From the NCBI GenBank assembly GCA_021734245.1, contig JAIPJH010000004.1, positions 9,645 to 73,644 on the forward strand: 64,000 bases of DNA, given 5' to 3'. Made by a program: the position numbers and the translations under genes. Each line of letters begins with the position of its first letter. Position 1 is the first letter of the stretch. This DNA comes from Candidatus Cloacimonadota bacterium (GTDB lineage Bacteria; Cloacimonadota; Cloacimonadia; Cloacimonadales; TCS61). Below the pieces are notes generated by a model. The model was not told where the DNA came from and did no database searches. It worked only from the letters and a program-made list of their open reading frames with translations. Below, piece after piece: positions 1-56,572 of this stretch.

Positions 1-849
1 ACCAATGAACTGAAAATCAAATACGATCTGGAAACCAAGGAAGTGGAAAATGATCTTCTGAAAAAAGATCTTGAGATTATAAATATGCAGAAGAAGCATT
101 TGTTATATGTTCTGATTGCCGCCCTGATCATCATAACTCTGGTTATCATATTTTTGATTTCGAGCCGACGAATGAATAAAAAATTAAAACATTTGAACAT
201 AGCTCTCACGATTGCCAAACAGGAAGCTGAAAGAAACGAAAAGCAGATTTTGCTGATCAATAAAATGCTGCGGCATGACATCACCAATAATCTGGCGGTG
301 GTTGTTTCCGCTATCCGGCTCTACCAAAAAGAACAAGATAAAAGCTATCTGGATGAGGCAGCAAAGAAGTGCAATATCGGCATCGAACTGATCAAAAATC
401 TGCACAGTATGGAAAGAAAAAATATAGATTTCGAACATCGGCACCCCATTAATCTGGAAAAAATATTAGATAAGATAATTAACGATAATTCTGAGATCAA
501 CATTTCCTACAAAGGATCGGCTGTAGTGTTGGCAGATGACAGCATCGAATCTGTTTTCCGCAATCTGATCGAAAATGCTGTCAATCACGGCCAGGCAAAG
601 CAGATCGAGATTTCGATCCTGGAAGTGAATAATATTTGTGAGATTAGAGTTTTCAATGACGGCAGGCAGATAGATGAAGAAGTCATAGATAAAATATTTG
701 AAGAGAAATTCTCTCATGGCAAAAATGGCAATACCGGTCTGGGTTTGTATCTGGTAAAACAAAATGTACAACGTTACGGCGGTTCGATTTATGTGGAAAA
801 TACTCCGCCTTCCGGAGTTACTTTTATTCTGAGTCTGAAAAAAGCCTAA
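1..849 (+). CDS. Sensor histidine kinase, 5'-truncated by the window edge
   Basis: The frame is open from base 1 (TNELKIKYDLETKE...), so the tracked GTG at 43 is probably internal. TM segment LLYVLIAALIIITLVIIFLI. H-box-like MLRHDITNNL, N-box ENAVNHG, G-boxes NDGRQI and GNTGLGLYLV. The TAA stop overlaps the next ATG (TAATG). Confidence 0.8.
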   Translation, partial: TNELKIKYDLETKEVENDLLKKDLEIINMQKKHLLYVLIAALIIITLVIIFLISSRRMNKKLKHLNIALTIAKQEAERNEKQILLINKMLRHDITNNLAVVVSAIRLYQKEQDKSYLDEAAKKCNIGIELIKNLHSMERKNIDFEHRHPINLEKILDKIINDNSEINISYKGSAVVLADDSIESVFRNLIENAVNHGQAKQIEISILEVNNICEIRVFNDGRQIDEEVIDKIFEEKFSHGKNGNTGLGLYLVKQNVQRYGGSIYVENTPPSGVTFILSLKKA

Positions 850-1952
850 TGAGAATTTTTCTTTCCTTCCTGATATTAATTGCCTTTTCACATCAGCTGA
901 TTGGAAGTGTAAATTTTACCAATCTCAGCGGGTCTGATCTGGCTTTGGGTATCGGCTCACAACAAATTGCTTTGGGTGGTGCCGGAACACTTGTGGAAGA
1001 TGCTCCCGGTTCTATTTTCTGGAATGCGGCTGGAATCTCTCGAATTTCACATTCTCAGATTCAAATTGATTTTCAATCATTTACAGATTTTAAAAATGCA
1101 ATTTTAATTTGGAAACCGGATTTTTTCAAAGTATACTCTAAACAAGTTACGATTGGAATAAGTGCGATAAATCGTCTGAGATTTATAGGCAGCAGCGATC
1201 AGGTTTGGAGCGGTTATGCTGCCCATCTTTTGGACTTAACTATGATTGATCTAACTGATTTCACAGGTAAAATCAATTCCAATACTTACGATTATCGTTT
1301 TAACTTAGCCCTAAACCTGTCATCCAAATTAAATGCCGGTATTACTTTTGTTAGACTGGTCTGACGGACCGAAATTGAAAGAACCGGTGGTTCTGACCCG
1401 CATTATGAAGTAGGAATAGAATATAATACCTTTGATCTTGGCATTACTTATCAATTCAATAAAAATCTATCTGTCAGCCTGGTTAATAGAAATCTGCTTC
1501 ATTTTGGTGAAAACCGCTATAGTAATAAAGAAAATTCCACTCAAGAAACTGATGTAGAATTTTCTTTTCCCGATTATTTTACTTTTGGAATAGCATGGAA
1601 AAAAAATATTAATATTTATATGGATAATGAATTCATGATAGGAAAATATGGTGGAAAAACTTTGAAAGATATGAAAATCTGGTTTTTAAAAATAGGTGTG
1701 GAAAAAACTTATTTAAAGAAACTTGATTTGAGAGCTGGAATCACTGCTCCCATAATGGCAGAAACCACTACACTGGGAAATTTGTTAGATAAAATTCCAG
1801 ATCCAAAACTAAATCTATCATGCGGAATCGGCTACAAATGGAAAAGATTTACATTTGATTCAGCTTTATTCTTTAATCCTGGCCTTAGCTATGCAGAAAG
1901 AAAACCCGTTCCAGACTTATCTATTTCAATATCGTATCAATTATCAATTTAA
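849..1952 (+). CDS. FadL/PorV-like outer-membrane beta-barrel protein, paralog 1, with one in-frame TGA at 1362-1364 (candidate Sec or recoding site)
   Basis: Tracked ORFs 849..1364 and 1620..1952 share one frame, and 1365-1619 has no other stop. Signal peptide MRIFLSFLILIAF. IFWNAAGIS motif (NPAGL-like). OMP-style C-terminus SISISYQLSI. Collinear homology to the neighbouring paralog runs across the TGA. Confidence 0.6.
1380..1394 (+). promoter_or_regulatory. Hairpin AGAACC-GGT-GGTTCT, 15 nt downstream of the in-frame TGA (SECIS-like or recoding stimulator candidate)
   Basis: Perfect 6-bp stem. The loop starts 21 nt after the UGA and begins with GG. The geometry matches the hairpin in paralog 2, with a compensatory change. 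Confidence 0.4.
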
Positions 1953-1964
1953 AAGGATATAAAA

Positions 1965-3056
1965 TTGAAAAAAATATCAATTATCATTTTATTAATTTTA
2001 AACACACTTTTGTCTGCAGTAGATTTTGATTACCTAACTGGCTCTGACCTTTTTATTGGAGTTGGTGCTAAGCAGATCGGAATGGGTGGAACCGGATCTT
2101 TAATAGAAAATTCTGCTGCGTCCATTTACTGGAACCCTGCTGGCTTGAATAGTATTCGTGGAAACCAATTGGAAATTGATCTTGAAATTCCCTGGGATGC
2201 AAAAAATGCCATATTTATCTTCAAACCAGATTTTCTTAAACTAAATGGAAGACAGATCACAATTGGCTTAGCCAGAATTAACCGTTTAAAATTTAAAGGT
2301 TATAGTGAAGATGTCTGGGATGGATATTCCGAACATATTCTAAATCTTTCATTTAATTCAATCTCTAATTTTCGGGGAGGAATCGATACAGATACAAATG
2401 ATTATCGATTTGCTATGGCTTATGATATTTCCAAACGATTTGATTTTGGTTTCGCTCTTATTCGCTATGTATGACGAACCAAAGTGAACAGAATCGGAGA
2501 TTCTGCTGAAAAATATGAATTTGGTGTAGATTTTACAACCTTCGATTTAGGGTTGATTTACAAAATCAATCCCAAAACTTCTGCCAGTCTGGTTTATCGA
2601 AATATAGTAGATTTCTGGGGCAGACGAATACATGAAGACGAAGATTCCAACTACGAAAAGGCTGCGGATTTCAGTTCGCCAAATTTCCTAACTCTTGGAG
2701 TTTCCTATAAATACAAATCTTATAATTTATATTTGGATAGTGAACTTTTAAGTGGATATTATGGTTCAAATAAGAAATACATGAAATTCTGGTTTATCAG
2801 AGCTGGCGCAGAGAAATTTCTTACTAAATCCCTCATCGTTCGATCAGGAATTACCTATCCGGTAATGGCTGAAACTTCATCGCTGGGCAATATTCTTGAT
2901 ACAATTCCAAATCCCAAATTCAATGCTGCTGTTGGTTTAGGCTATCAAATTAAAAACTGGATTCTTGACACCACACTTTTTTTCAATCCCGGAATGAGCT
3001 ACGTAGAACATAAACCCGTTCCCGGTGGATCGATTAGTATAAGATACAACTACTAA
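1965..3056 (+). CDS. FadL/PorV-like outer-membrane beta-barrel protein, paralog 2, with one in-frame TGA at 2472-2474
   Basis: Tracked ORFs 1965..2474 and 2484..3056 share one frame. Signal peptide MKKISIIILLILNTLLSA. IYWNPAGLNS motif. C-terminus SISIRYNY. The TGA sits at the codon homologous to paralog 1 (..RLV-TGA-RTEIERTG vs ..RYV-TGA-RTKVNRIG). Confidence 0.6.
2489..2505 (+). promoter_or_regulatory. Hairpin CAGAATC-GGA-GATTCTG, 14 nt downstream of the in-frame TGA (SECIS-like or recoding stimulator candidate)
   Basis: Perfect 7-bp stem. The loop starts 21 nt after the UGA and begins with GG. The stem differs from paralog 1 by a paired C>T / G>A change that keeps base pairing. Confidence 0.4.
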
Positions 3057-6126: not shown

Positions 6127-7500
6127 ATGAAACTGATAAAAAATGCTGTAATTTCGAATGATAAGGAACTTGTTGATATTCTATATGAAGATAAAATAAT
6201 TCAAATCGGAAAAAATATTTCTCAATTCGAATTTGAAGAAATTATCGATCTGGAAGGAAAGATCCTGATTCCAGGCTGCATCGATGCTCATGTTCATTTC
6301 AACGATCCCGGCTACAACGAGCATGAAGATTTTATAACCGGCACAACTGCTGCAGCTTTTGGCGGTATCACCACGATCATCGATATGCCTTGCACTTCCA
6401 TTCCACCGGTTACGAATACTGAAAATCTTGAATCAAAACTATCTGTAATCAGGAATAAAGCCGTCATAGATTTTGCGCTCTGGGGTGGTATTCGCAGGAA
6501 TGATTTTCCAATTGAAATAGAAAAAATTCATCAATTATGGAAAGCGGGAATTGTCGGATTTAAAATTTACACAATTTCCGGAATGGACACTTTTGCAGCA
6601 CTTTCTTATGAAGATATAAAACAAATTTTTGAGAGATTCCCTGAAATGCTTTTTGCCTTCCATGCCGAGGATGCAGAAATTATCAAGAAAGCTGCCGATA
6701 AACTTTCTGAACTTGAAAAGATGAAGCCGGAAAATTATTTAAAATCACGACCTGCAGAAGCAGAAGTAAAAGCAGTTGGAAATATTTTGGAACTTGCCGA
6801 AAAAAATCATCTCCATTTCGTTCATATCAGTACCAAAAAAGCTGCTGAATCTATCTTGAAAGCAAAATCCAAATTGGATGTAAGCTGGGAAACATGTCCG
6901 CATTATCTGCAATTTACTGCTGCTGATTTTCCTCAGCTGAAAGGCAGATTAAAAACTGCTCCACCAGTTAAATGCGAAGATGATAAAAAATTTCTAAGAG
7001 CTGCCTTAAAAACAGGAAAAGTGGATTTTATTACAACAGATCACGCCGGATGTGATTGGAAAACAGAAAAAGATTTGGAAGATTTTTCCAAAGTTTATAA
7101 TGGAATTCCAGGAACACAATTAATGATTCCATATTTATTATCGGAATTTTATGTGAAGGAAAAAGTGCCACTATCCACTTTGATAAAGTTAACCTCGGAA
7201 AATGCTGCCAGAAGATACGGTTTATTTCCTCAAAAAGGAAGTTTACAAATTGGTTCTGACGCAGATTTTACGGTGATAGATCAAAATAGATCATTCTTGG
7301 TTAATGAAACAAAATTGAAATCGAAAGGAAAATATTCACCGTTTCATGGACAAACTTTTTCCTGTTCAATAGCAAAAACAATTGTCCGTGGAGAAACTGT
7401 TTTTGATCGAGAAAAAGGATTAATGGTCGATCCTGGTTTTGGAAATTGGGTAAAAAAAAAAGTAAATTATCTTATCGCGAAATCGGCAAAATTAGTTTGA
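6127..7500 (+). CDS. Cyclic amidohydrolase of the allantoinase/dihydroorotase family
   Basis: PGCIDAHVHFNDPG metal-binding motif, AAAFGGITTIIDMP, HFVHIST, ETCPHYL, TTDHAG. The 3' end overlaps convergent nrdG by 34 nt. Confidence 0.8.
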   Translation: MKLIKNAVISNDKELVDILYEDKIIQIGKNISQFEFEEIIDLEGKILIPGCIDAHVHFNDPGYNEHEDFITGTTAAAFGGITTIIDMPCTSIPPVTNTENLESKLSVIRNKAVIDFALWGGIRRNDFPIEIEKIHQLWKAGIVGFKIYTISGMDTFAALSYEDIKQIFERFPEMLFAFHAEDAEIIKKAADKLSELEKMKPENYLKSRPAEAEVKAVGNILELAEKNHLHFVHISTKKAAESILKAKSKLDVSWETCPHYLQFTAADFPQLKGRLKTAPPVKCEDDKKFLRAALKTGKVDFITTDHAGCDWKTEKDLEDFSKVYNGIPGTQLMIPYLLSEFYVKEKVPLSTLIKLTSENAARRYGLFPQKGSLQIGSDADFTVIDQNRSFLVNETKLKSKGKYSPFHGQTFSCSIAKTIVRGETVFDREKGLMVDPGFGNWVKKKVNYLIAKSAKLV

Positions 7501-8156
7501 AGTTCACGCGCCAGAAAGTTAAGATTTTCCTGTGAGAAAGAAGAAAATTTTACATAATCTTCATTCAGGGTTTTGGATGGTACAAACTTCTGAAGCAGAT
7601 ATCGTTTTGCTTTTCCCAGCATTTGCCCCATGATCAAAACATCATCTGTTGTTAGTAAATTTTGCACCAGTGTACTGCGAAATTCATAATCGATATTGGA
7701 ATTTTCAATAAGTTTAATGCTTCTTTTTATCGATTTTGAATCTACATTTGAACAAGTAACTTCCGCATATTTTGGCAGTGGTGCTTTTATATCCATCGCC
7801 AGATAATCCACTAATTTCAACCTGATGATTTTTTCTAAGATATCAGGATTTGTACCGTTGGTGTCAAGCTTAATGCTAAATCCCATAGATCGGCATTCTA
7901 ACAAGAAGTTTATCAAATCTGAATGCAAGGTCGGTTCACCGCCAGTTATACTCACAGCATCCAGTTTGCCTTTCCTATTTTCCAGGAAGTTAATAATTTC
8001 TTCTTCCGGTATTGGGTTGCAAAATTTATCAGCTTCAACAAGTTCGGGATTGTGACAATATGGACACCGGAAATTGCAGCCCTGAGTAAAAACAATTGCG
8101 CAGATTTTTCCGGGATAATCAATCAGCGAAAACTTCTGAAAACCACCGATTTTCAT
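7467..8156 (-). CDS. nrdG: Anaerobic ribonucleoside-triphosphate reductase activating protein (radical SAM)
   Basis: CNFRCPYCHNPE radical-SAM cluster motif. The start overlaps the nrdD stop (TAATG). Confidence 0.9.
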   Translation of the reverse strand: MKIGGFQKFSLIDYPGKICAIVFTQGCNFRCPYCHNPELVEADKFCNPIPEEEIINFLENRKGKLDAVSITGGEPTLHSDLINFLLECRSMGFSIKLDTNGTNPDILEKIIRLKLVDYLAMDIKAPLPKYAEVTCSNVDSKSIKRSIKLIENSNIDYEFRSTLVQNLLTTDDVLIMGQMLGKAKRYLLQKFVPSKTLNEDYVKFSSFSQENLNFLARELQTNFADFAIR

Positions 8157-10252
8157 TATTCTACCATCTTGAATGTCTTCCTGATATCGAACTCCGCTTT
8201 TTTACCATCGTTCCATTGCTGCACCGGTCGCAAATAACCGACAACACGAGAATATACTTCACAAGCCGTATTGCAATGCGGACATTTGTAATGTTCACCA
8301 TCGATGTAGCCATGAGTTTTGCAAACGCTGAAAGTTGGTGAAAATGTGAAATAAGGCAATTTGTAATTACTACAGATTTTATTCACCAGATTTTTTAAAC
8401 TATCAATGTTTCCAATTCTTTCTCCGGCAAAAAGATGCAATACTGTTCCGCCGGTATATTTTGTTTGAATCTCATCTTGAAGATCCAGAGTTTCAAAAAT
8501 ATCATCGGTATAATTTACCGGGAGTTGAGTTGAATTTGTGTAAAATGGTTCTGCCTGATGACTGTTATAATCTTTTTCGTTGGCAACCACGATATCTGGA
8601 AATCTCATTTTATCTATTTTTGCCAGACGATAAGTTGTACCTTCTGCTGGAGTTGCTTCCAGATTATAATTATTTCCGGTTTCTTCCTGATAATCTATCA
8701 ATTTATCTCGCATGAAATCCATGATCTCAATTGCAAAACCATGACCTTCTTCCATGCCAATATTGGCTCCAATCAAATTCAGGCTGGCTTCATTCATGCC
8801 AATAAGCCCAATCGTGGAAAAGTGATTTTTCCAATATTGACCGAACCTGCCTTTGATATCTCTAAGATAATATTTTGTATATGGATAAAGCGAATTATCG
8901 GTTAGTTTTTCCAGTACTTTACGCTTGATTTCCAAACTATTTTTGGCTTTTTCCATCAATTCATCAAGCCGCTGCAAAAAATCATATTTATTTTTGGAAA
9001 GATAAGCAATCCTGGGAAGATTTATGGTAACAACTCCGATAGAACCTGTAAGTGGATTTGCACCAAACAATCCTCCACCGCGAGCTTCCAATTTTCTTGT
9101 ATCCAAACGAAGACGACAACACATACTACGTGCATCATCAGGACTCATATCTGAATTCACAAAATTAGAAAAATACGGAATTCCATATTTGGCAGTAGCT
9201 TGCCACAGGTAATCCAAAGTAGGATTATCCCAATCAAAATCGGTAGTAATATTATAAGTAGGAATTGGAAATGTAAAAACTCGTCCTTTCGCATCACCTT
9301 CACTCATCACTTCCAGGAAAGCTTTGTTGATAACATTCATTTCCTCCTGAAAATCAGAATAAGTTAATTCCAGATGTTCGCCGCCCAGAATTACAGGATG
9401 ATCAGCATAAGTAGATGGAATAACCAGATCCATTGTAATGTTTGTAAAAGGTGTTTGGAAACCGACCCGAGTGGGAACGTTCACATTAAAAATAAATTCC
9501 TGCAAAGCCTGCTTTACTTCTTTGTAGGAAAGTTTATCGAAACGAATAAAAGGAGCCAGCAGAGTATCGAAATTTGAAAATGCCTGCGCACCGGCAGCTT
9601 CACCCTGCAGTGTGTAGAAGAAATTTACGATCTGGCCCAAAGCGCTGCGGAAATGTTTAGCAGGACCACTTTCAATTTTGCCGGAAGCTCCTTTAAAACC
9701 GATCATCAGAAGATCTTTGAGATCCCAGCCGACACAATAAACCGAGATCAATCCCAAATCGTGAATATGAAGTTCACCATTGATGTGAAGTTCTTTAACT
9801 TCTGGTGGATAAATTTTATTCAACCAGTAAATTTTGCTGATTTCCGAAGCAATATAATTATTTAAACCCTGTAGAGAATAAGCCATATTACTATTTTCTT
9901 TTACCTGCCAATCCAATCTCTCCAGGTATTTGTCGATCAGAGAAATTTCGGCATTGGAAACGATTTCGCGAATTTTGGCATGTTGATCTCGATAGATAAT
10001 GTAAGCTTTTGCGGATTTTTTGAAAGGAGAGGAAAGCAGAACTTCTTCTACAATATCCTGAATTTCTTCCACGCAGGGAACTTGCTTCTCAATCATTTGC
10101 TGAGCAAGATTGATAACTTGCAGTGAAAGTTTCTTGGCTATCGATTCATCAAATTCGTCCGTAGCTTCACCAGCTTTCAGGATGGCATGAGTGATTTTAT
10201 CAAACTCAAATTTTACTATCTGATTGTCGCGTTTTTTTATAAACTTAAACAT
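8156..10252 (-). CDS. nrdD: Anaerobic (class III) ribonucleoside-triphosphate reductase
   Basis: N-terminal ATP-cone (KRDNQIVKFEFDKITHAILKA). C-terminal Zn ribbon CPHCN plus glycyl-radical motif SRVVGYLRP. I prefer ATG 10252 (GGAGAG 7 nt upstream) over the tracked TTG at 10267. Confidence 0.93.
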   Translation of the reverse strand: MFKFIKKRDNQIVKFEFDKITHAILKAGEATDEFDESIAKKLSLQVINLAQQMIEKQVPCVEEIQDIVEEVLLSSPFKKSAKAYIIYRDQHAKIREIVSNAEISLIDKYLERLDWQVKENSNMAYSLQGLNNYIASEISKIYWLNKIYPPEVKELHINGELHIHDLGLISVYCVGWDLKDLLMIGFKGASGKIESGPAKHFRSALGQIVNFFYTLQGEAAGAQAFSNFDTLLAPFIRFDKLSYKEVKQALQEFIFNVNVPTRVGFQTPFTNITMDLVIPSTYADHPVILGGEHLELTYSDFQEEMNVINKAFLEVMSEGDAKGRVFTFPIPTYNITTDFDWDNPTLDYLWQATAKYGIPYFSNFVNSDMSPDDARSMCCRLRLDTRKLEARGGGLFGANPLTGSIGVVTINLPRIAYLSKNKYDFLQRLDELMEKAKNSLEIKRKVLEKLTDNSLYPYTKYYLRDIKGRFGQYWKNHFSTIGLIGMNEASLNLIGANIGMEEGHGFAIEIMDFMRDKLIDYQEETGNNYNLEATPAEGTTYRLAKIDKMRFPDIVVANEKDYNSHQAEPFYTNSTQLPVNYTDDIFETLDLQDEIQTKYTGGTVLHLFAGERIGNIDSLKNLVNKICSNYKLPYFTFSPTFSVCKTHGYIDGEHYKCPHCNTACEVYSRVVGYLRPVQQWNDGKKAEFDIRKTFKMVE

Positions 10253-10445
10253 ATCCCAACTCTCCAACTCTGTTTTAAATCGACAACTCTTTATTTTTCA
10301 TAAACTTACAAAAATGAACCCAGAAAACGCATTTTTGGACTCACTATATCTACTTGACTTAAAGATAAGGACTTAATGTTCTTGTCAAGAGCATTATAAA
10401 TTCATATTTTATTAAACTGCTCGAATCAAGCTTTATAAAGGTGTT

Positions 10446-10477
10446 TAAGCAGCGAATAAAAAATTATTCTGCTTAAC
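10446..10477 (-). terminator. Interrupted 13-bp hairpin downstream of nrdJ (possible terminator)
   Basis: TTAAGCA(gc)GAATAA-AAAA-TTATTC-TGCTTAA, about 50 nt after the nrdJ stop. It is followed only by a weak T tract on the minus strand. Confidence 0.35.
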
Positions 10478-10526
10478 TATACAGTAAAATCCCTAGATTC
10501 TTCGTCAAACAAAGCTGGTCTATTTT

Positions 10527-12785
10527 TTAGCATTTCGACCAACCACAGGAATTACACTTCAAACATCCTTCCGAATGTTCGATTGAACTACCACAATCTG
10601 GACAGGTTGCCATAGAACTTGATGAGATTTTTTTTGAAGATTCATCTTTGGCTTTTTTATTTAACTCCTCGATGTTTCTCAAGCTGTCTTGATCCAGTTG
10701 CAAAAACTTATCCAACGACTTTGCTACGCTGTCTGCACAGGAAGTTACCATACTGCCATTGCTCCACATGGGAGATGGACAGCGAATTCCTTTTAACTGC
10801 CTGGAAATGGAACTCACTTTCACATTAGATCGAAGACAAAGAGAAGTAAGACGGGCAATCGCTTCCAATTGAGCCGAGGCACATCCACCAACTTTTCCCA
10901 TTTGAGTAAAGATCTCACATGCACCCTTTTCATCGGAATTGATAGTTACGTACATATGTCCGCAACCGGTTTCGATCTTTTGTGTCGTTCCAATGGTGAT
11001 ATCCGGTCTTTCTCTGGGAGCAATACGATGACCGTTAGAAGTTTTTTGTTCTTTTATTTCCTTACCTTTGTTCAAAACCTGATTTTGACGACTACCGTCA
11101 CGATAAACAGTAACACCTTTGCAGCCAAGTTCATAAGAAAGTTCATAAGCCATCTGAATATCTTCCTTGCTGGCATTTTGGTTGAAATTAATCGTTTTGG
11201 AAACTGCATTATCGGTATATTTCTGAAAAGCTGCCTGCATCTGGATATGCCATTTTGGAGTTATATCATGACTTGTAACAAAAATCTTTTTCAGTTCTTC
11301 CGGAATTTCATCGATATGAGAGATACTGCCTGTTTCAGAAACTTTTTCCATCAACTCTTTGGAATAAATTCCTGCCTCCTTTACTGCTTTTTCAAAATGT
11401 GGATTGATGTATAACAATTTCTCTCCATCCATCACATTTTTTACATAAACCAGCGAAAACTGTGGTTCGATTCCACCGGAAGTATTCAGGATCATACTGA
11501 TGGTTCCGGTTGGTGCAATTGTGGTTGTGGTTGCATTCCTGATACCATTCTTTTTTATGTCTTTTTTCAGATTTTCCCAATCCATTTTTTCCGATTCTCT
11601 CGGCAGATTTCCTTCATCATAGACGCTACTCGTAAAATTGGGGAATGCTCCATCGATCTTTGCCAGTTTCATAGATTTAAGTTTGGAATGATAATCGATG
11701 AATTCCATGATTTCGGCTGCCAAATGCAAAGCTTGCTGACTATTGTAAGGAATTTTTAATCGGAAGAGAAGATCTGCCCAACCCATGATGCCAAGACCAA
11801 TTTTGCGATTGGCTTTTACCATCTCATCAATTTCGGGAAGTGGGAATTTGGAACGATTAATCACATCATCCAAAAACTCAACACTTTCATAAACAACCTG
11901 CTTAAGAAGTTCCCAATCAAATTTTTGCTTTTCTACCATTACAGAAAGATTTATCGATCCCAGATTGCAGGCTTCATTTGGTAGAAGCGGTTGTTCACCG
12001 CACGGATTTGTAGATTCAATCTTTCCGATATGCGGAGTTGGATTGTATTTATTAATTCTATCAATGAAAACTATTCCCGGTTCACCATTTTGATGCGCCA
12101 TTTTTATGATGAGCTTGAAAACATCACGCGCAGCAAGTTCTTTGACAATTTTGCCGGTATGAGGAGCAATGAGTTCGTATTTTTCGTCTTCATAAACTGC
12201 CTTCATGAACTTGTCTGTAATTCCTACAGAAATATTAAAATTAGTAAGTTTTGTAATATCTTCCTTGCAGGTTATAAATTCCAGGATTTCGGGATGATCC
12301 ACACTGAGAATTGCCATGTTGGCTCCACGACGAGTACCACCTTGTTTCACAGCATCTGTAGCTGCGTTAAAAACATTCAAAAAAGAGATCGGACCGCTGG
12401 AAACACCGTTGGTACTGCGGACCCTGGCATTTGCCTGCCGCAATTTACTGAAACTGAAACCTGTTCCGCCACCGCTTTTATGAATGAGAGCTGCATTTTT
12501 TACTGTTTCAAAAATACTATCCATGCTGTCTTCCAAAGGTAAAACAAAACAGGCAGAAAGCTGTTGAAGATCGTTTCCGGCATTCATCAATGTTGGTGAA
12601 TTTGGCAGGAAGCAACCAGAATCGAGTAATGCATAATATTTTTTTCTTTTATCTTCGTTGCCACCGCTGATATCAGTCGCAACGCGGTTTATCATTTGAT
12701 CCCAGTTTTCAATTGGTTCATCATTTTTATCATGTTTAAAATAACGTTTTTTGAGCACAGTAAGTGCATTTTCTGTTAAAATCAT
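10527..12785 (-). CDS. nrdJ: Class II (adenosylcobalamin-dependent) ribonucleotide reductase
   Basis: 752 aa. TLMNAG, NPCGEQPL, TIAPTGT and VSKTINF motifs. C-terminal Cys-rich tail CPDCGSSIEHSEGCLKCNSCGWSKC. Confidence 0.93.
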   Translation of the reverse strand: MILTENALTVLKKRYFKHDKNDEPIENWDQMINRVATDISGGNEDKRKKYYALLDSGCFLPNSPTLMNAGNDLQQLSACFVLPLEDSMDSIFETVKNAALIHKSGGGTGFSFSKLRQANARVRSTNGVSSGPISFLNVFNAATDAVKQGGTRRGANMAILSVDHPEILEFITCKEDITKLTNFNISVGITDKFMKAVYEDEKYELIAPHTGKIVKELAARDVFKLIIKMAHQNGEPGIVFIDRINKYNPTPHIGKIESTNPCGEQPLLPNEACNLGSINLSVMVEKQKFDWELLKQVVYESVEFLDDVINRSKFPLPEIDEMVKANRKIGLGIMGWADLLFRLKIPYNSQQALHLAAEIMEFIDYHSKLKSMKLAKIDGAFPNFTSSVYDEGNLPRESEKMDWENLKKDIKKNGIRNATTTTIAPTGTISMILNTSGGIEPQFSLVYVKNVMDGEKLLYINPHFEKAVKEAGIYSKELMEKVSETGSISHIDEIPEELKKIFVTSHDITPKWHIQMQAAFQKYTDNAVSKTINFNQNASKEDIQMAYELSYELGCKGVTVYRDGSRQNQVLNKGKEIKEQKTSNGHRIAPRERPDITIGTTQKIETGCGHMYVTINSDEKGACEIFTQMGKVGGCASAQLEAIARLTSLCLRSNVKVSSISRQLKGIRCPSPMWSNGSMVTSCADSVAKSLDKFLQLDQDSLRNIEELNKKAKDESSKKISSSSMATCPDCGSSIEHSEGCLKCNSCGWSKC

Positions 12786-25228: not shown

Positions 25229-26947
25229 TTATTTCATCAATACCATTTTCCTTGTAAAAATCTGGTTTCCAGCTTGCAATCTGGCAAAATAAATGCCCGA
25301 AGAAACAGGTTTGTTGTTGTTATCGGTACCGTTCCAGACAACAGAATAACTCGGTGACGTGCCATATCCTTCGACAGGCTCAGGATGACTTTTTCCCTCT
25401 CTCTTTGCTAAACTCCCGCTTGGGAACGTAAATGTTTTCACTTTCTGGCCTTTCAGATTAAAAATTTCAATTGTCGCAAAGACAGAGCTTTGCGTTACGC
25501 TGAAGCTGATTGTCGTGCTGGGATTGAAAGGATTGGGATAATTTGTAATATGAATTTGAGATTCAGGAATATTATTTTGAGCAGAAACCGGATTCAACAT
25601 CAAATCCAAAGAATTGAATACATTTAACCTTCCTCCGGAAACAGTCACATTTTCCAGATCGGGAATAATATCAACACCATCCAATAAAAACTGTTTGATT
25701 TCCAGACATTTTGTAGGGTCTGCTTCATATTCCAGCAGCCAATCCTGAGGTGCTGCAGAAAACATAAGAGCAACCGCTCCTGCCAAATGCGGTGCCGCCA
25801 TTGAAGTTCCAGTTTTCCACGTATAATCGTTATTCCAATTTGTAGAGTAAATACTGCTGCCTGGAGCTCCCAGATCAATGCATTCCAAGCCATAAGCCGC
25901 ACTGTTGTGTTTTGTATCGTCATTCATCGTATTGGTTACTGTTAAAAGATAATCACTTTCGCAAGCTGTTGGCATGTCGCCGCAATTATCAATATTTACG
26001 CCAGCATTCATAGTCGCAGCTGAACTGAGAACACCAGCTACACCTAGAGAATCGTAAATTGCGCTCCACAGTGGGTACTGGTTGGGATTGCCGTAATCTA
26101 TTCCAAAAGAAGCATTCGTAGAAATTACAAAAGCTCCCAAAGCTCCTGCTGTTTCGTTCCATAACTTTCTCATTTCCAATACATATCCATAACCTTCCAC
26201 CACAACCGATTCTACACTGGAATCAGCCGCTATCGGCATGATTTTGCCATTCCAGCAAACTCCGGTTACACCTAAATTGTTGTTTCCGATCGCTGCGGCA
26301 ATTCCTGCCACGTGAGTTCCGTGGCTGTCTGTAGGAATAATACCGCAATGTGTATAACCATTCCAACCGTCGTAATCATCTACATAACCATTACAGTCAT
26401 CATCAATATTATTATTGGGAATTTCATTGATATTTTTGAAATAGTTTATATCATCATGGTTCAGATCGGCACCACCATCCACAATGGCAATTACTAAAGT
26501 ATCTCCAAAAGCTGTTACTCCACCGTTTGTAATATTCCAGGCTTCAGGTGCGTCGATATCACTATCTTCAATGCCGTTCATCTGCCCGGTATTGTGCATG
26601 TTCCATTGCAGATCAAAACTTTCATCATCAGGAAATTCACGTTGTTCGATGTAATGATTGAATTGTGAAATCATAACATATTTACTTTCATTCAAAGAAA
26701 TTTTCACATCTTCATCTTTCCATCGATCGGGAACAAAAGAGCACAACCAGATATTCATTCTTCTGGTTAGAAGTCGTTCAAATTTCAGATCAATCTCACT
26801 GAATTCATTCTCCAATTTTCGTATCTGCTCCTGGCTGGGAAAGGAAGGATTCAGCTGCACCATTATTTCTCCGGATTTATAGAGAGTTTCAGATGCAAAA
26901 AGTGTACTAAATATAAAAATCATTAAAATAATAATTGATTTTCTCAT
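25229..26947 (-). CDS. Subtilisin-family (S8) serine protease with T9SS C-terminal sorting domain
   Basis: Catalytic-triad contexts IAIVDGGAD, HGTHVAGIAA and GTSMAAPHLAG. CTD NYPNPFNPSTTISF...KMVLMK. Signal peptide from ATG 26947 (GGAGG RBS). Confidence 0.9.
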   Translation of the reverse strand: MRKSIIILMIFIFSTLFASETLYKSGEIMVQLNPSFPSQEQIRKLENEFSEIDLKFERLLTRRMNIWLCSFVPDRWKDEDVKISLNESKYVMISQFNHYIEQREFPDDESFDLQWNMHNTGQMNGIEDSDIDAPEAWNITNGGVTAFGDTLVIAIVDGGADLNHDDINYFKNINEIPNNNIDDDCNGYVDDYDGWNGYTHCGIIPTDSHGTHVAGIAAAIGNNNLGVTGVCWNGKIMPIAADSSVESVVVEGYGYVLEMRKLWNETAGALGAFVISTNASFGIDYGNPNQYPLWSAIYDSLGVAGVLSSAATMNAGVNIDNCGDMPTACESDYLLTVTNTMNDDTKHNSAAYGLECIDLGAPGSSIYSTNWNNDYTWKTGTSMAAPHLAGAVALMFSAAPQDWLLEYEADPTKCLEIKQFLLDGVDIIPDLENVTVSGGRLNVFNSLDLMLNPVSAQNNIPESQIHITNYPNPFNPSTTISFSVTQSSVFATIEIFNLKGQKVKTFTFPSGSLAKREGKSHPEPVEGYGTSPSYSVVWNGTDNNNKPVSSGIYFARLQAGNQIFTRKMVLMK

Positions 26948-26978
26948 TTTTCCTCCGTGGTTATAGATCATTCATTCA

Positions 26979-32367: not shown

Positions 32368-32451
32368 TTTTTCGACCACGGATAAACGCAGATAAACACC
32401 GATAACTCTTTAATTCTGTCATTCTACCTGCCAAGCCGAAGTTCTGAATGT

Positions 32452-32544
32452 ATAGGAACGAAGTCTGCTCTTTTAAAGCGACAATGTCGCTTTGCATCAA
32501 AAAATTGATGCAGTCCAAAGTTTTGCATCAAACAAACTCCAAAA
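32452..32544. repeat. Three-hairpin island repeat, copy A (5'-degenerate; hairpins 2 and 3 intact)
   Basis: AGCGAC-aat-GTCGCT and TGCATCAA-aaaa-TTGATGCA, identical to copy D. Ends in CTCCAAAA. Confidence 0.75.
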
Positions 32545-32585
32545 AATTTATTGCCAAAAATCACTATATTTTCATATCTAAACAC

Positions 32586-33302
32586 ATGAAAATCTTAATA
32601 TCTTTTATCGGGAATCATGATCCTTTTGCAGATGATAAAGAAGAACTCGGACCAATTCTTTCTATATTAAAAAAACATAAATTCGATAAACTTTTTCTAT
32701 TATTTAATAATGAGAAATACTGGGATTCACTAAATCGAACACAGCAATTCTGTAATCAGAACTATCCACAAATGAAAGTAGAGTATCGTCTAGCAGAAAC
32801 TTTGAGTCCAATTGATTACAATTTTGTTTATCCTGCTATGTATCAGGTGATTCAGAAATTGAAAAAAGATAATCCAAAAGCGAAATTTACCATTTCGGTT
32901 ACTTCTGGTACACCGACCATGCATGCTTGCTGGCTTTTTTTAGTTCAAGGTGGAGTTATTAACGCAAAACTTATTCAAGTTTCTCGTGAGGCTGGAATTC
33001 AGGAGATAACATTTAAACTAGATGATTTCCCAAAAATAGAAGAAACTCCCGAGATCAAAGCAAAACTTACTCAACTTGCTAGAGAAAACGAGCAACTTAA
33101 GAATTCATTAGATCTCGAGACAGCTCTTAAAAAAGGTTTTTATATACCTGAAGAAGGTTTAGACCTAATAAATGAAATATTACCAGCATATTACAAAGGA
33201 GCTTTAAAGCTTGCTGGTGGAAATGCAGCGAAGGCAGCAAAACTTTTGGGTCTGAAACCACATACTTTCAGAAAGAGGTTAAGAAAATTAGAAATAAAGT
33301 AA
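32586..33302 (+). CDS. RtcR-type CARF domain fused directly to a Fis-type HTH (no sigma54 AAA+ module)
   Basis: MKILISFIGNHDPF... and VTSGTPTMHACWLFLVQGG..AKLIQVS closely parallel E. coli RtcR ITTGTHVAQICWFLL..ARLIQ. The C-terminal GGNAAKAAKLLGLKPHTFRKRLRKL is an HTH_8. Only 238 aa. The tracked 5' extension (32448) only translates the repeat. Confidence 0.75.
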   Translation: MKILISFIGNHDPFADDKEELGPILSILKKHKFDKLFLLFNNEKYWDSLNRTQQFCNQNYPQMKVEYRLAETLSPIDYNFVYPAMYQVIQKLKKDNPKAKFTISVTSGTPTMHACWLFLVQGGVINAKLIQVSREAGIQEITFKLDDFPKIEETPEIKAKLTQLARENEQLKNSLDLETALKKGFYIPEEGLDLINEILPAYYKGALKLAGGNAAKAAKLLGLKPHTFRKRLRKLEIK

Positions 33303-33595: not shown

Positions 33596-34852
33596 ATGGA
33601 CATCAGAAAATTTTTAGAGCAATTTGATGATTCGGAACTGAAAAATATTGGCGTATTAAATACAAAAAGAAATCTATTAAATTCTAAAAGTGTTGAAAGT
33701 TTAATACAATTAATGAAACAAAGTAATATAGATAAACTAGAAGGACCAGAAGATTGGTTTTTAGATATAAATTATAATTTTTGTAATCCCAAATCAAATC
33801 TAAAACAAACTGGAAATTTAAAACAAAGTCAAACAAGACTTGGAGTTGTTTTTGATTTCCAAAATAACATTTTGAATCCTCATTATAGATCTTTTGATAA
33901 AAACCAAAACAATGAAAATTCCAGTCAAAATTCTCCCCAAGAAATTTACAAACAAAAAATCATATTAGATACTACTGTTTTTGCTAATGAAGATATTTCA
34001 AAACCTGAAAATAGAATCAATTTATCACTTTTCAGTTTATTCCTAATTGATGATTTCAGATCCTGGTTTTTAGAACAGTTTGATCTTCCACAAGATTCTG
34101 TTATTTTCCCTTCGACTAATTTAAAAGGTGGAATCAGACCTGATTTTGCAGTAAATAACAAAGAAGATAAACCAATAGCTTATATAGAAGTTGAGATCGG
34201 AAGAGAAGATATTGGTCAATTACAAAATTTTAGAAGTATGCTAAATGTCCCGGTCTTTTCAGTTTGTGGAAAAAAAGAACATGAAGGACATCTGAGTCTT
34301 TTAGAAATTTATGATAAATTAAACGAAGTAAAAGAAAAAATTAAATCCAAACAATTCAATAAGAATTTTGCTGTTTATGAAACCTTGATTTATGAAAACG
34401 TTCTTTCATATGGACGTGAGAGATATAAATCAACTACAATATCAGATGAAATGAGAAATTCTTTTCTTATTCAAAATCTGATGGATCATTTGGAGATTCA
34501 CGAAGATGTGGGAAGAACTATGAGACCTGGTGAATTTCTGCTTGAAACAAAGAAAGAATTCGGATTCTCTCTTAGAATTTATTCACGAGAATCAAAAATT
34601 AGGAATAGCTTATCCATTATGGCACGATCCGGTGGTAGACCAAGAATCATATTCCCTTCTAAAGAAAAATTAGAGAAATATTTACCTTCGTATAAACAGC
34701 CTGCAATTAACGAATTATGTAATTTTCTAAAAAGGTTTGGTTATCATATTGATACATTACCGGAAAGATCACAAGCAAGAATCGATATAAACCTCGTTGA
34801 GGGAAATATTGATAAATTTATTGCGATTTTGGAAAAATTGGGTGAAATATGA
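33596..34852 (+). CDS. Hypothetical protein with a PD-(D/E)xK-like nuclease core
   Basis: GGAGG RBS. 418 aa. The candidate core GGIRPDFAVNNKEDKPIAYIEVEIGRED has the spacing typical of restriction-endonuclease-fold proteins. The rest is unassignable. Confidence 0.55.
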   Translation: MDIRKFLEQFDDSELKNIGVLNTKRNLLNSKSVESLIQLMKQSNIDKLEGPEDWFLDINYNFCNPKSNLKQTGNLKQSQTRLGVVFDFQNNILNPHYRSFDKNQNNENSSQNSPQEIYKQKIILDTTVFANEDISKPENRINLSLFSLFLIDDFRSWFLEQFDLPQDSVIFPSTNLKGGIRPDFAVNNKEDKPIAYIEVEIGREDIGQLQNFRSMLNVPVFSVCGKKEHEGHLSLLEIYDKLNEVKEKIKSKQFNKNFAVYETLIYENVLSYGRERYKSTTISDEMRNSFLIQNLMDHLEIHEDVGRTMRPGEFLLETKKEFGFSLRIYSRESKIRNSLSIMARSGGRPRIIFPSKEKLEKYLPSYKQPAINELCNFLKRFGYHIDTLPERSQARIDINLVEGNIDKFIAILEKLGEI

Positions 34853-34968
34853 AAATAGATAGAAACGATCCAATTAACAAAATAATATTTCCTGATAAGA
34901 AATCAACAACTGGTTGTATGACATTAATTGTTTGTATTTTATTATGTTTTGAGAGGTTGCATGGATAG
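34849..34968 (+). CDS. 39-aa micro-ORF with a hydrophobic Cys-rich tail, translationally coupled on both sides
   Basis: MKIDRNDPINKIIFPDKKSTTGCMTLIVCILLCFERLHG. Its ATG overlaps the upstream TGA (ATATGA) and its TAG overlaps the downstream ATG (ATGGATAG). It is below the track length cutoff. Confidence 0.3.
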   Translation: MKIDRNDPINKIIFPDKKSTTGCMTLIVCILLCFERLHG

Positions 34969-37378: not shown

Positions 37379-37379
37379 G

Positions 37380-38426
37380 TTGAAAATACTTTATGTGGAA
37401 GATGAACTGACAAAGAATGTTCCCAAAATTATCAGGTTATTCGAGAAATATCTTGGACCTAAAAGAGTAAAGCAGTTAGAAAAACTAGAAAATGATGAGA
37501 GTGGTTACGGTGCTGAACCTCAGGAAATTAAGAGAATAGTTGAATCGTGTGGAGTTGTAGATATTGAATATTGCTTTACTGATAGTTTAAAGAAAATAGT
37601 AGAATTCCAAAATGAATATACAATTTTCATAATTGATAGAAACTTATCTGAAGTAGAGTATGAGTTGGAAGATATACAAAAAATCGGAACAAGCTACAAA
37701 AATGAGTTTTATGATAAATTCTTTGAACGTGAGGGAGATTATTTTCTTGAACTACTTATCTCAGCTAAATTTGATGTAATTAATAATTTTTACTTTCTTA
37801 CAGCTAATTCCCGCGATGATCTGCGAAATGCAGATAGATTAAAAGAGCATTTTGATTTTGGATTATTTAAAGCAAGTAACATCATTGATAAATCTGATAA
37901 TCTGGAAATGCATAAACTAAAGATGCGAATTGAAAATGATGAAAAACTTCAGGTTTTGAAAGATAATATTAGATATGTGCGTATATTGGAAAAAATCGAT
38001 TCTGACGTTTCGGAAAACTTCCTTGACCTTTTAACTCATAAAGATGATTCAAATCAAAATACCATAAGAAAAAATCTTACTACAATAAGAAATATCCTTT
38101 CCGATAATATTCTTCCGGAAATTGCCAGGTTGAAAAATGCTCCTGATTTTTGCTGGAATCCCAAGAATAAGAATCAGATTGTTATGAGAGGAGTTATAAG
38201 TTGGATATGTAATTTCGATAAAGATACGAGAATAAATAATTTTCAATTTAATTCTAATGCTATTATAAAGAATTTTCTATATGATATTCAGGAGATAGCA
38301 AGTGATTATGGTGATCATAAAAATTACAAAAAAAAAGAAAAAACACTTGCTACTAGTGATACCGTAAATTCACTAATATATGCTTTAAAAGATATTATCG
38401 TGTGGTATGATAAGATTCTGGAGTAA
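37380..38426 (+). CDS. Receiver (REC)-like domain protein with an uncharacterised C-terminal effector-like domain
   Basis: TTG start 1 nt after the upstream stop, with a GGGAGG RBS 6 nt upstream. KILYVEDE, TIFIIDRNL (candidate phospho-Asp) and YFLTAN. The C-terminal ~180 aa (TIRKNLTTIRNILSDN ... IQEIASDYGDH ... LIYALKDIIVWY) has no DNA-binding motif that I recognise. Confidence 0.65.
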   Translation: MKILYVEDELTKNVPKIIRLFEKYLGPKRVKQLEKLENDESGYGAEPQEIKRIVESCGVVDIEYCFTDSLKKIVEFQNEYTIFIIDRNLSEVEYELEDIQKIGTSYKNEFYDKFFEREGDYFLELLISAKFDVINNFYFLTANSRDDLRNADRLKEHFDFGLFKASNIIDKSDNLEMHKLKMRIENDEKLQVLKDNIRYVRILEKIDSDVSENFLDLLTHKDDSNQNTIRKNLTTIRNILSDNILPEIARLKNAPDFCWNPKNKNQIVMRGVISWICNFDKDTRINNFQFNSNAIIKNFLYDIQEIASDYGDHKNYKKKEKTLATSDTVNSLIYALKDIIVWYDKILE

Positions 38427-56463: not shown

Positions 56464-56572
56464 TTTTAACTCTCCTTCCTTAATACTTTTTTTTAATTTT
56501 GAACGCAAAAATGAAACCAAACGCTAAATTATTTATCATAATATTAAGCATATTTTGAACTGTTAAAAATAA

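What the first reader, a model, noticed from the sequence alone, without database searches (positions are those of the whole stretch)
1362..1400. Hairpin with a compensatory substitution at a fixed distance from both in-frame UGAs
Seen in sequence: paralog 1 has AGAACC-GGT-GGTTCT at 1380-1394, and paralog 2 has (C)AGAATC-GGA-GATTC(TG) at 2489-2505. In both, the apical loop starts exactly 21 nt after the UGA and begins with GG. The stems differ by a paired change (C>T in the 5' arm, G>A in the 3' arm). This keeps Watson-Crick pairing although it changes two amino acids (T/I and G/D). Established knowledge: bacterial SECIS elements are stem-loops shortly 3' of the UGA with conserved G(U) in the apical loop. 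Inference: selection acts on RNA structure here, not only on the protein. The stems are short (6-7 bp) and the loops very small, so this would be at best a minimal SECIS or a readthrough stimulator.
Basis: partly seen in the sequence, partly recalled or inferred. Interest (0 to 1): 0.7.

Follow-up and report, generated by a model that had tools for sequence, protein, structure and literature searches.

The report
SECIS hairpins of outer-membrane selenoprotein genes
The small hairpin 21 bases after each in-frame UGA is a conserved RNA signal of the type that makes bacterial ribosomes insert selenocysteine instead of stopping. It marks a widespread family of selenium-containing outer-membrane channel proteins that the published selenoprotein lists I checked do not include.

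Summary
Both tandem paralogs (849-1952 and 1965-3056) have one in-frame TGA at the same alignment column. Each TGA is followed by a 6-7 bp hairpin whose GGN triloop starts 21 nt later.

The in-frame TGA is best read as selenocysteine. TGA is an ordinary stop elsewhere in the window. About 25 full-length homologues carry Cys at that column. More than 100 database clusters are N-terminal pieces that end one residue before it.

DNA from 15 distinct TGA-containing homologues, from Cloacimonadota and a GC-richer group, shows the hairpin in the same register. Of the pair cells, 91% are paired, against 47% or less when the partners are slid. Four of seven pairs show compensatory double changes. Synonymous sites are frozen inside the stem and variable beside it. 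Two Cys-form genes lack the hairpin.

The element meets the published bacterial SECIS criteria for loop size, stem length, loop G and spacing. The energy criterion is borderline.

The protein is a FadL/TodX-like 14-strand barrel, and the hairpin encodes the tip of the strand 5-6 loop (inferred extracellular). Selenium incorporation and SelB binding were not tested. No sel genes lie in the window.

Verdict: a real SECIS of a known kind, in a selenoprotein family I did not find described.

The parts
849..1952 (+). Paralog 1: gene for a FadL/PorV-like outer-membrane beta-barrel protein, 367 residues when the single in-frame TGA is read through. GenBank annotates only residues 1-171, as a hypothetical protein.
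   Evidence: Translation. 47% identity to paralog 2 across the TGA. Homologues are full length. GenBank naming of the 171-aa piece.
1362..1364 (+). In-frame UGA of paralog 1, inferred selenocysteine codon (residue 172).
   Evidence: Aligns with an invariant Cys in Cys-form homologues. TGA is kept in 15 distinct homologues. TGA is a normal stop elsewhere in the window.
1380..1394 (+). SECIS hairpin 1: stem 1380-1385 / 1389-1394 (6 bp), loop GGU 1386-1388. It encodes R-T-G-G-S.
   Evidence: In-register conservation and covariation. Frozen synonymous sites.
1965..3056 (+). Paralog 2: second copy of the same gene. TTG start 12 nt after the paralog 1 stop, with AAGGA upstream. 363 residues with read-through.
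2472..2474 (+). In-frame UGA of paralog 2, inferred selenocysteine codon (residue 170).
   Evidence: Same alignment column as 1362-1364.
2489..2505 (+). SECIS hairpin 2: stem 2489-2495 / 2499-2505 (7 bp), loop GGA 2496-2498. It encodes (N)-R-I-G-D-S.
   Evidence: The identical stem is found in L001, L142, L146 and L148 despite variable neighbouring synonymous sites.

Best explanation
Each hairpin is the bacterial selenocysteine insertion sequence (SECIS) of its gene.

Proposed mechanism: when the ribosome reaches the in-frame UGA, the stem-loop begins 14-15 nt downstream, at the mRNA entrance. It presents its GGN apical loop, closed by a C-G pair. [quoted passage not shown]

Shown here:
- The UGA is conserved and in frame, and the homologous column is Cys in other family members.
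- The hairpin is conserved in register, with compensatory changes.
- It fits the published bSECIS model.
- It encodes the loop that joins barrel strands 5 and 6, which I infer to be extracellular loop L3.

Inferred, not shown:
- SelB binding, actual selenium incorporation, and the presence of selABCD in this genome.
- That the hairpin lies in a loop because the peptide sequence there is least constrained.
For: 1. The genetic code is standard. TGA ends several ordinary ORFs in the window, and only these two genes need one TGA read through to reach homologue length.
2. Similarity between the paralogs continues across the TGA (47% identity, E = 2e-120).
3. The column is a Sec/Cys pair. It is Cys in P0001, P0003-P0026 and L062/L063. 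It is also Cys in a larger subgroup with a C-x-T-x-x-C-G motif.
4. 113 of the 120 best hits of a profile search are N-terminal pieces. All but four of them end right before that column. Read-through of their DNA restores full-length proteins.
5. Fifteen distinct TGA-containing genes all have the hairpin with the loop at nt 25-27.
6. In alignment A5, 91.4% of pair cells are paired, against 17-47% when partners are slid by 1-3 columns. Four of seven pairs, covering 16 cells, changed on both sides. No shuffle out of 500 reaches the observed score. RNAalifold independently returns the same helix.
7. L140_p1, the orthologue of paralog 1, has U·G at columns 23-29. L140_p2 has two further compensated pairs.
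8. In nine Cloacimonadota sequences, the third codon positions inside the stem are invariant or compensated. Neighbouring invariant Arg, Thr and loop Gly codons use 3-4 synonymous codons each. The stem codons ATC, ACC and TCT are not the preferred codons of this genome.
9. The two Cys-form genes have no in-register hairpin: 4 of 7 and 1 of 7 pairs.
10. The bSECIS criteria (3-9 nt loop, 4-16 bp stem, G in the first two loop positions, 16-37 nt spacing) are met. A printed canonical example has the same GGC triloop.
11. A Cloacimonetes-type tRNA(Sec) is described in the literature.
Against: - No selA, selB, selC or selD lies in the 64 kb window or in the fetched loci. The Sec trait of this genome is therefore taken from the literature on the phylum.
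- The hairpins are short and weak. Alone they fold at -6.1 and -6.7 kcal/mol. The -7.5 threshold is passed only when 60 nt are folded (-7.8 and -9.7). Z-scores are not significant.
- No conserved lower stem was found.
- No Rfam family matches.
- Part of the covariation (A-U versus C-G at columns 19-33) tracks GC content and clade, so the number of independent events is smaller than the cell counts.
- The peptide motif [RP]-[TIV]-G-[GDS]-[STP] is conserved too, so protein and RNA constraints are partly confounded.
- Only two Cys-form genes were available as a negative control.
- There are no experimental data.
Confidence: 0.85

Rival explanations
1. The hairpin stimulates UGA read-through without SelB. 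It acts as a roadblock that slows release-factor action, so a near-cognate tRNA (Trp, Cys or Arg) decodes the UGA.
For: The hairpin is short and lies at the mRNA entrance when UGA is in the A site. No Sec machinery was seen in the window.
Against: - The homologous column is invariably Cys, never Trp or Arg. That is the signature of Sec.
- The loop GG is invariant in 15 of 15 sequences while the third loop base varies freely. A roadblock does not need this, but the SECIS model does.
- The TGA forms with a named source come from Cloacimonadota and Desulfosalsimonadaceae. For Cloacimonetes, Sec use is documented. For Desulfobacterota, I rely on general knowledge and on the top-organism list.
Confidence: 0.06
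2. The pairing is a by-product of a conserved peptide motif (R-T/I-G-G/D-S) and has no RNA function. The UGA is handled by some other signal.
For: The peptide motif is conserved among the TGA forms. AGA, GAT and GGA are common codons in this AT-rich genome.
Against: - Amino acids change in pairs that keep the base pairing: T/G, I/D, I/G (as U·G) and V/D.
- Synonymous positions in the stem are frozen, while equally conserved flanking codons vary. The non-preferred codons ATC, ACC and TCT are fixed.
- The GC-rich clade keeps the helix with different codons and a bulge.
- The motif is absent from the Cys forms.
Confidence: 0.05
3. The genes are pseudogenes, split genes or carry sequencing errors, and the UGA simply terminates translation.
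For: Gene callers and GenBank annotate only the 171-residue piece.
Against: - The same TGA at the same column occurs in two paralogs that are 47% identical.
- It also occurs in 15 independent assemblies and in more than 100 protein clusters.
- Conservation is undiminished downstream of the TGA.
- Half of a beta-barrel is not a plausible product.
Confidence: 0.02
4. The organism uses an alternative genetic code in which UGA is a sense codon (Trp in code 4 or Gly in code 25).
For: The genome has low GC content (36%).
Against: - TGA terminates several well-defined ORFs in the window. Long genes contain no internal TGA.
- The L001 and L152 homologues use TGA both internally and as their terminator.
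- The aligned residue is Cys, not Trp or Gly.
Confidence: 0.01

Closest known systems
Bacterial SECIS element (bSECIS consensus of Zhang & Gladyshev 2005 as summarised in PMC13188914; prototype E. coli fdhF)
   Same: - A stem-loop inside the coding region, just 3' of the Sec-UGA.
- Small apical loop starting with GG, 6-7 bp upper stem (10 bp with one bulge in the GC-rich clade), and 21 nt between UGA and loop.
- The SelD example printed in BSepDB has the same C-G-closed GGC triloop and a single 3' bulge.
   Different: - At the short, weak end of the range. In the Cloacimonadota forms it has no conserved lower helix and no bulged U.
- The loop starts about one codon further from the UGA than in fdhF (the fdhF spacing is from memory).
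- SelB binding was not tested.
FadL / TodX / TbuX outer-membrane hydrophobic-compound channels (Pfam PF03349)
   Same: The AlphaFold model of the Cys-form homologue P0124 (pLDDT 92.8) is a 14-strand barrel. Its best solved matches are TodX, FadL and TbuX, with E from 4e-10 to 1e-7 and TM-score about 0.58.
   Different: - Sequence similarity is marginal: Pfam E = 5e-4, below the gathering score.
- The protein is about 60-80 residues shorter.
- It has a conserved Cys/Sec in strand 5 that, as far as I recall, is not a FadL feature.
PorV/PorQ family (NCBIfam NF033709; type IX secretion) and UPF0164 (PF03687)
   Same: Shared N-terminal G-S-D-L-G-x-G-A-R-A-x-G-M-G-G-A...W-N-P-A-G motif and similar overall length. 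Weak hits to NF033709 and NF052325. The genome encodes cargo with type IX sorting domains.
   Different: Scores of 32-50 bits are far below the cut-offs of 90-325 bits. The protein is a distinct subfamily, not an identified PorV or PorQ.
Previously predicted outer-membrane selenoproteins: GSU2204 / MtrB-PioB-like beta-barrel protein and TonB-dependent receptor, FCYXU type
   Same: These are outer-membrane beta-barrels with one Sec, predicted by Sec/Cys pairing plus a SECIS, mostly in Desulfobacterota.
   Different: They are unrelated barrel families with other Sec motifs. No FadL/PorV-like entry appears in those lists.

Membership tests
Bacterial SECIS (bSECISearch consensus model) | Apical loop of 3-9 nt on an upper stem of 4-16 bp | tested here: met
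   3-nt loop with a 6 bp stem (paralog 1) or 7 bp stem (paralog 2). The criteria are quoted.
Bacterial SECIS (bSECISearch consensus model) | [quoted passage not shown] | tested here: met
   The loops are GGU and GGA. G25 and G26 are invariant in 15 of 15 homologues.
Bacterial SECIS (bSECISearch consensus model) | [quoted passage not shown] | tested here: met
   21 nt in both paralogs and in all 15 homologues.
Bacterial SECIS (bSECISearch consensus model) | Minimum free energy of -7.5 kcal/mol or lower | tested here: inconclusive
   The result depends on the segment folded. UGA plus 57 nt gives -7.8 and -9.7 kcal/mol. The 39-nt segment holding only the hairpin gives -6.1 and -6.7. The GC-rich clade reaches -14 to -17.
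Bacterial SECIS (bSECISearch consensus model) | Binds SelB and directs Sec insertion at the upstream UGA | not testable with these tools
   Needs a SelB binding assay, a reporter assay or 75Se labelling.
Selenoprotein gene | Conserved in-frame UGA with coding conservation on both sides | tested here: met
   plus more than 100 truncated clusters.
Selenoprotein gene | Homologues with Cys at the Sec position | tested here: met
   The column is invariant Cys in alignments A2 and A3. About 25 full-length Cys forms and a further C-x-T-x-x-C subgroup.
Selenoprotein gene | The host genome encodes selA, selB, selC and selD | tested here: inconclusive
   None is present in the 64 kb window or the fetched loci. 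The rest of the genome could not be reached. A Cloacimonetes-type tRNA(Sec) is reported in the literature.
FadL/TodX family (PF03349) | 14-strand beta-barrel fold similar to FadL | tested here: met
   Tested on the Cys-form homologue P0124 (33% identical to paralog 1). pLDDT 92.8, 14 strands by DSSP, top PDB matches TodX, FadL and TbuX.
FadL/TodX family (PF03349) | Pfam score above the gathering threshold | tested here: not met
   19.2 bits against a cut-off of 29.7 for paralog 2, and no hit for paralog 1.
PorV/PorQ family (NF033709) | NCBIfam score above the curated cut-off | tested here: not met
   40 and 32.5 bits against a cut-off of 90.

The most novel reading that the evidence does not exclude
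These genes define a previously unlisted selenoprotein family. It is a FadL/PorV-like outer-membrane barrel with a single Sec in strand 5, two residues before an invariant Thr. The ancestral motif is C/U-x-T-x-x-C. From the alternation of residue types along the strand, Sec probably faces the lumen near the extracellular mouth. Sec would then sit on the cell-surface side of a hydrophobic-substrate channel in anaerobes, which suggests redox or covalent chemistry during uptake or export rather than a cytoplasmic oxidoreductase role. The family is common, with more than 100 clusters at 90% identity, and is systematically annotated as two fragments.
Probability: 0.6. Interest if true: 0.7.

Novelty: new member of a known kind. 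Interest (0 to 1): 0.58.

Why it matters
- Annotation: these genes are split or truncated in every record I saw. The window's own copy is a 171-residue 'hypothetical protein' in four GenBank entries.
- RNA biology: this is a clean natural example of a minimal SECIS. It shows a C-G to U·G to U-A compensatory path that overrides amino-acid identity. It also shows the SECIS placed in the part of the protein that tolerates it, the tip of the strand 5-6 loop.
- Selenium biology: most known bacterial selenoproteins are soluble redox enzymes. A widespread FadL/PorV-type outer-membrane channel with Sec near its outer mouth would add to the few predicted envelope selenoproteins. It gives a testable system for what selenium does at the cell surface of anaerobes.

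Tried and rejected
- Alternative genetic code: rejected, because TGA is a normal stop in the window.
- Rfam: no SECIS or other family at gathering threshold or at E <= 10 around the genes.
- The first homologue search with paralog 1 alone gave only 2 hits. Profile queries were needed.
- The 133 loci from the genome and metagenome scans contained only one more TGA form (L001) and two Cys forms.
I used the Cys-form P0124 instead.
Whether the Cys pair forms a disulfide, and which way the Sec side chain points, could only be inferred from strand alternation.
- A search for tRNA(Sec) in the window and loci found none. Pfam annotation of 37 window ORFs found no sel genes.
- A covariance model of the element finds only the two sites in the window. 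This shows uniqueness, but it is not independent evidence because both sites were in the model.
- Literature: no paper in the library links selenocysteine to a FadL/PorV/UPF0164 protein. The 'hypothetical protein DG' and 'DW' of deep-Sep are unrelated sequences.
- Cluster look-up added no taxonomy beyond Cloacimonetes.

Full report
**1. What is at the site**

The window carries two tandem, co-oriented genes at 849-1952 and 1965-3056. Each is interrupted by one in-frame TGA, at 1362-1364 and 2472-2474.

With the TGA read through, the products are 367 and 363 residues long. They are 47% identical over 346 residues (E = 2e-120). The alignment runs straight across the TGA, which falls in the same column in both.

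- Paralog 1: AGAACC-GGU-GGUUCU at 1380-1394.
- Paralog 2: CAGAAUC-GGA-GAUUCUG at 2489-2505.

In both, the loop begins 21 nt after the UGA. ViennaRNA predicts both hairpins.

On their own the hairpins are weak. They fold at -6.1 and -6.7 kcal/mol, with z-scores of +0.39 and -1.34 against shuffles. However, a scan of both strands of the window finds only two hairpins with at least 6 Watson-Crick pairs closing a GG-initiated triloop, and they are these two.

**2. The UGA is recoded, most likely to selenocysteine**

TGA is a normal terminator for several ORFs in the window, and long genes contain no internal TGA. This excludes genetic codes 4 and 25.

A first protein search found a 391-residue homologue with Cys at the UGA column. 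Profile searches then showed two populations.
- About 25 full-length proteins have Cys at the column, in the motif C-[VTI]-T-T-F...C-Q.
- 113 of the 120 best hits are N-terminal pieces of 150-230 residues (one of 332). All but four end one residue before the column. One of these pieces is the window's own 171-residue product. GenBank lists it as a hypothetical protein of 'Candidatus Cloacimonetes bacterium'.

An exhaustive search of cluster representatives found matching N-terminal and C-terminal halves. It also found a further full-length subgroup with the motif C-x-T-x-x-C-G.

I fetched contigs for several truncated pieces. In every case the stop is TGA, and reading through it restores a full-length homologue. 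Two of these genes (L001 and L152) use TGA both internally and as their real terminator.

Conservation of an in-frame UGA together with Cys homologues is the standard signature of a selenoprotein.

**3. The hairpin is conserved in register and covaries**

Fifteen distinct TGA-containing genes were aligned from the UGA, without gaps.
- Nine are from Cloacimonadota. These include orthologues of both paralogs in the same gene order: kinase, gene 1, gene 2, urocanase on the opposite strand.
- Six are from a GC-richer group. One of these is from a Desulfosalsimonadaceae MAG.

All fifteen have the loop GGN at nt 25-27 and pairs 24-28 through 19-33, mostly also 18-34. Counting the helix on this alignment gives:
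- 91.4% of cells paired, against 17-47% when the 3' partners are slid by 1-3 columns.
- Four of seven pairs with changes on both sides, covering 16 cells.
- None of 500 shuffles reaches the observed covariation score or the observed percentage paired.

RNAalifold independently returns the same helix.

The U·G case is L140_p1, the orthologue of paralog 1. It is the expected intermediate between the two states. L140_p2 carries two more compensated pairs (A-U to C-G at 19-33 and A-U to G-C at 22-30) and one A·A mismatch. The GC-rich clade keeps the upper four pairs (AACC/GGUU) and extends the helix to 10 bp with a single bulged C.

**4. RNA constraint versus protein constraint**

I compared synonymous sites within the nine Cloacimonadota sequences.
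- Codons 2 (Arg), 3 (Thr) and 9 (the loop Gly) encode invariant amino acids but use 3-4 synonymous codons each.
- The third positions of the stem codons 7, 8, 10 and 11 are invariant, except in L140_p2 where both changes are compensated.
- The fixed stem codons are not the genome's favourites. ATC makes up 32% of Ile codons, ACC 22% of Thr codons and TCT 26% of Ser codons.

The same set of related sequences therefore shows variable synonymous sites next to frozen ones. This controls for relatedness.

The amino-acid changes also come in base-pair-preserving combinations: T/G, I/D, I/G and V/D.

The two Cys-form genes for which DNA was available have no in-register hairpin, with 4 of 7 and 1 of 7 pairs. 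This negative control has only two sequences.

**5. Comparison with the SECIS model**

A 2026 review prints the consensus constraints (PMC13188914):
- a loop of 3-9 nt and an upper stem of 4-16 bp;
- a G in the first two loop positions, usually followed by G or U;
- 16-37 nt between the UGA and the loop;
- a minimum free energy of -7.5 kcal/mol or lower.

The first three are met. The energy criterion is passed only when about 60 nt are folded (-7.8 and -9.7 kcal/mol).

The 'canonical SECIS' example printed for a SelD gene in BSepDB is a C-G-closed GGC triloop with a one-base 3' bulge. That is the same apical architecture, so a triloop is not unusual. Rfam has no matching family.

From memory, not tested here: the E. 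coli fdhF element places its loop G/U about one codon closer to the UGA, and its minimal functional form is a 17-nt upper stem-loop 11 nt from the UGA.

**6. The protein**

Pfam and NCBIfam give only sub-threshold hits to FadL (PF03349), UPF0164 and PorV/PorQ.

An AlphaFold model of the Cys-form P0124 has a pLDDT of 92.8 and is a 14-strand barrel. Its best solved matches are TodX, FadL and TbuX.

The Cys that aligns with Sec (Cys182) lies in strand 5, five residues before the loop that joins strands 5 and 6. By the usual outer-membrane-protein topology rule this is extracellular loop L3 (inference). The five codons that form the hairpin (R-T-G-G-S in paralog 1) align with the tip of that loop.

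The alternation of residue types along strand 5 of paralog 1 puts Sec, and the invariant Thr two residues later, on the lumen-facing side (inference).

The position of a partner cysteine varies among family members:
- five residues after the Sec or Cys (U/C-x-T-x-x-C);
- thirteen residues after it;
- immediately before it (C-U in L151);
- absent in the Cloacimonadota forms.

**7. What is not shown**

No selA, selB, selC or selD lies in the window or in the fetched loci. That the phylum uses Sec rests on a literature mention of a Cloacimonetes-type tRNA(Sec) (PMC5330540). SelB binding and selenium incorporation are untested.

**8. Novelty**

The hairpin is an ordinary bacterial SECIS in kind.

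I did not find the host family described as a selenoprotein. It is absent from:
- the 'complete list' of 87 prokaryotic selenoprotein families (PMC9312934);
- the deep-Sep paper and its supplement;
- the text of the 2026 review and of BSepDB.

NCBIfam release 20 also has no specific model for it. Those sources do list two other outer-membrane barrels as predicted selenoproteins: a GSU2204 / MtrB-PioB-like protein and a TonB-dependent receptor. An envelope selenoprotein is therefore not unprecedented.

I rate the finding as a new member of a known kind and of moderate to good interest.

Noticed in passing
window 43-851: The sensor histidine kinase gene (HATPase_c) ends at TAA 847-849, overlapping the ATG (849-851) of paralog 1. 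A kinase directly upstream of the barrel gene(s) recurs in L142, L146 and L148, and the paired genes followed by urocanase on the opposite strand recur in L140-L145. This suggests an operon whose function is unknown.
   Followed up: partly
L134:2094-2131, also L137, L138, L152, L149: The GC-rich TGA forms carry U-x-T-x-x-C, with a Cys five residues after Sec. This matches the C-x-T-x-x-C-G motif of a large full-length Cys subgroup (P0235-P0268). L151 instead has a Cys immediately before Sec (C-U). The Cloacimonadota forms have no nearby Cys at all.
   Followed up: partly
L001:4457-4459 and L001:5039-5041; L152 gene end: The same gene uses TGA once as the internal (Sec) codon and again as its real terminator. 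The outcome therefore depends on local context, not on the code.
   Followed up: yes
window 7053-7085: A third TGA is followed by a GG-triloop hairpin (with G·U pairs) at the same +25 spacing. It is out of frame in the amidohydrolase gene 6127-7500 and looks like a chance match.
   Followed up: yes
window 25229-26971, 48939-52664, 52690-56520, 62543-63931 (all - strand): A subtilase, two very large gingipain-like C25 peptidases and another protein. The subtilase, the first C25 peptidase (48939-52664) and the last protein carry type IX secretion C-terminal sorting domains (Por_Secre_tail). The organism therefore probably has a type IX secretion system, in which PorV-like barrels act.
   Followed up: no
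window 7467-12785 (- strand): Two ribonucleotide reductase systems sit side by side: NrdD with its radical-SAM activase (7467-10267) and a Ribonuc_red_lgC-type reductase with a TSCPD domain (10527-12785).
   Followed up: no
window 33596-38426 (+ strand): Three consecutive ORFs of 418, 816 and 348 residues have no Pfam match at E <= 1e-5. They lie just after a CARF/RtcR-like regulator gene (32448-33302).
   Followed up: no
L139:848-1100: The read-through product stops early at 260 residues, and the C-terminal part continues in another frame (L139 +1043). This is probably an assembly frameshift in a short metagenome contig.
   Followed up: no
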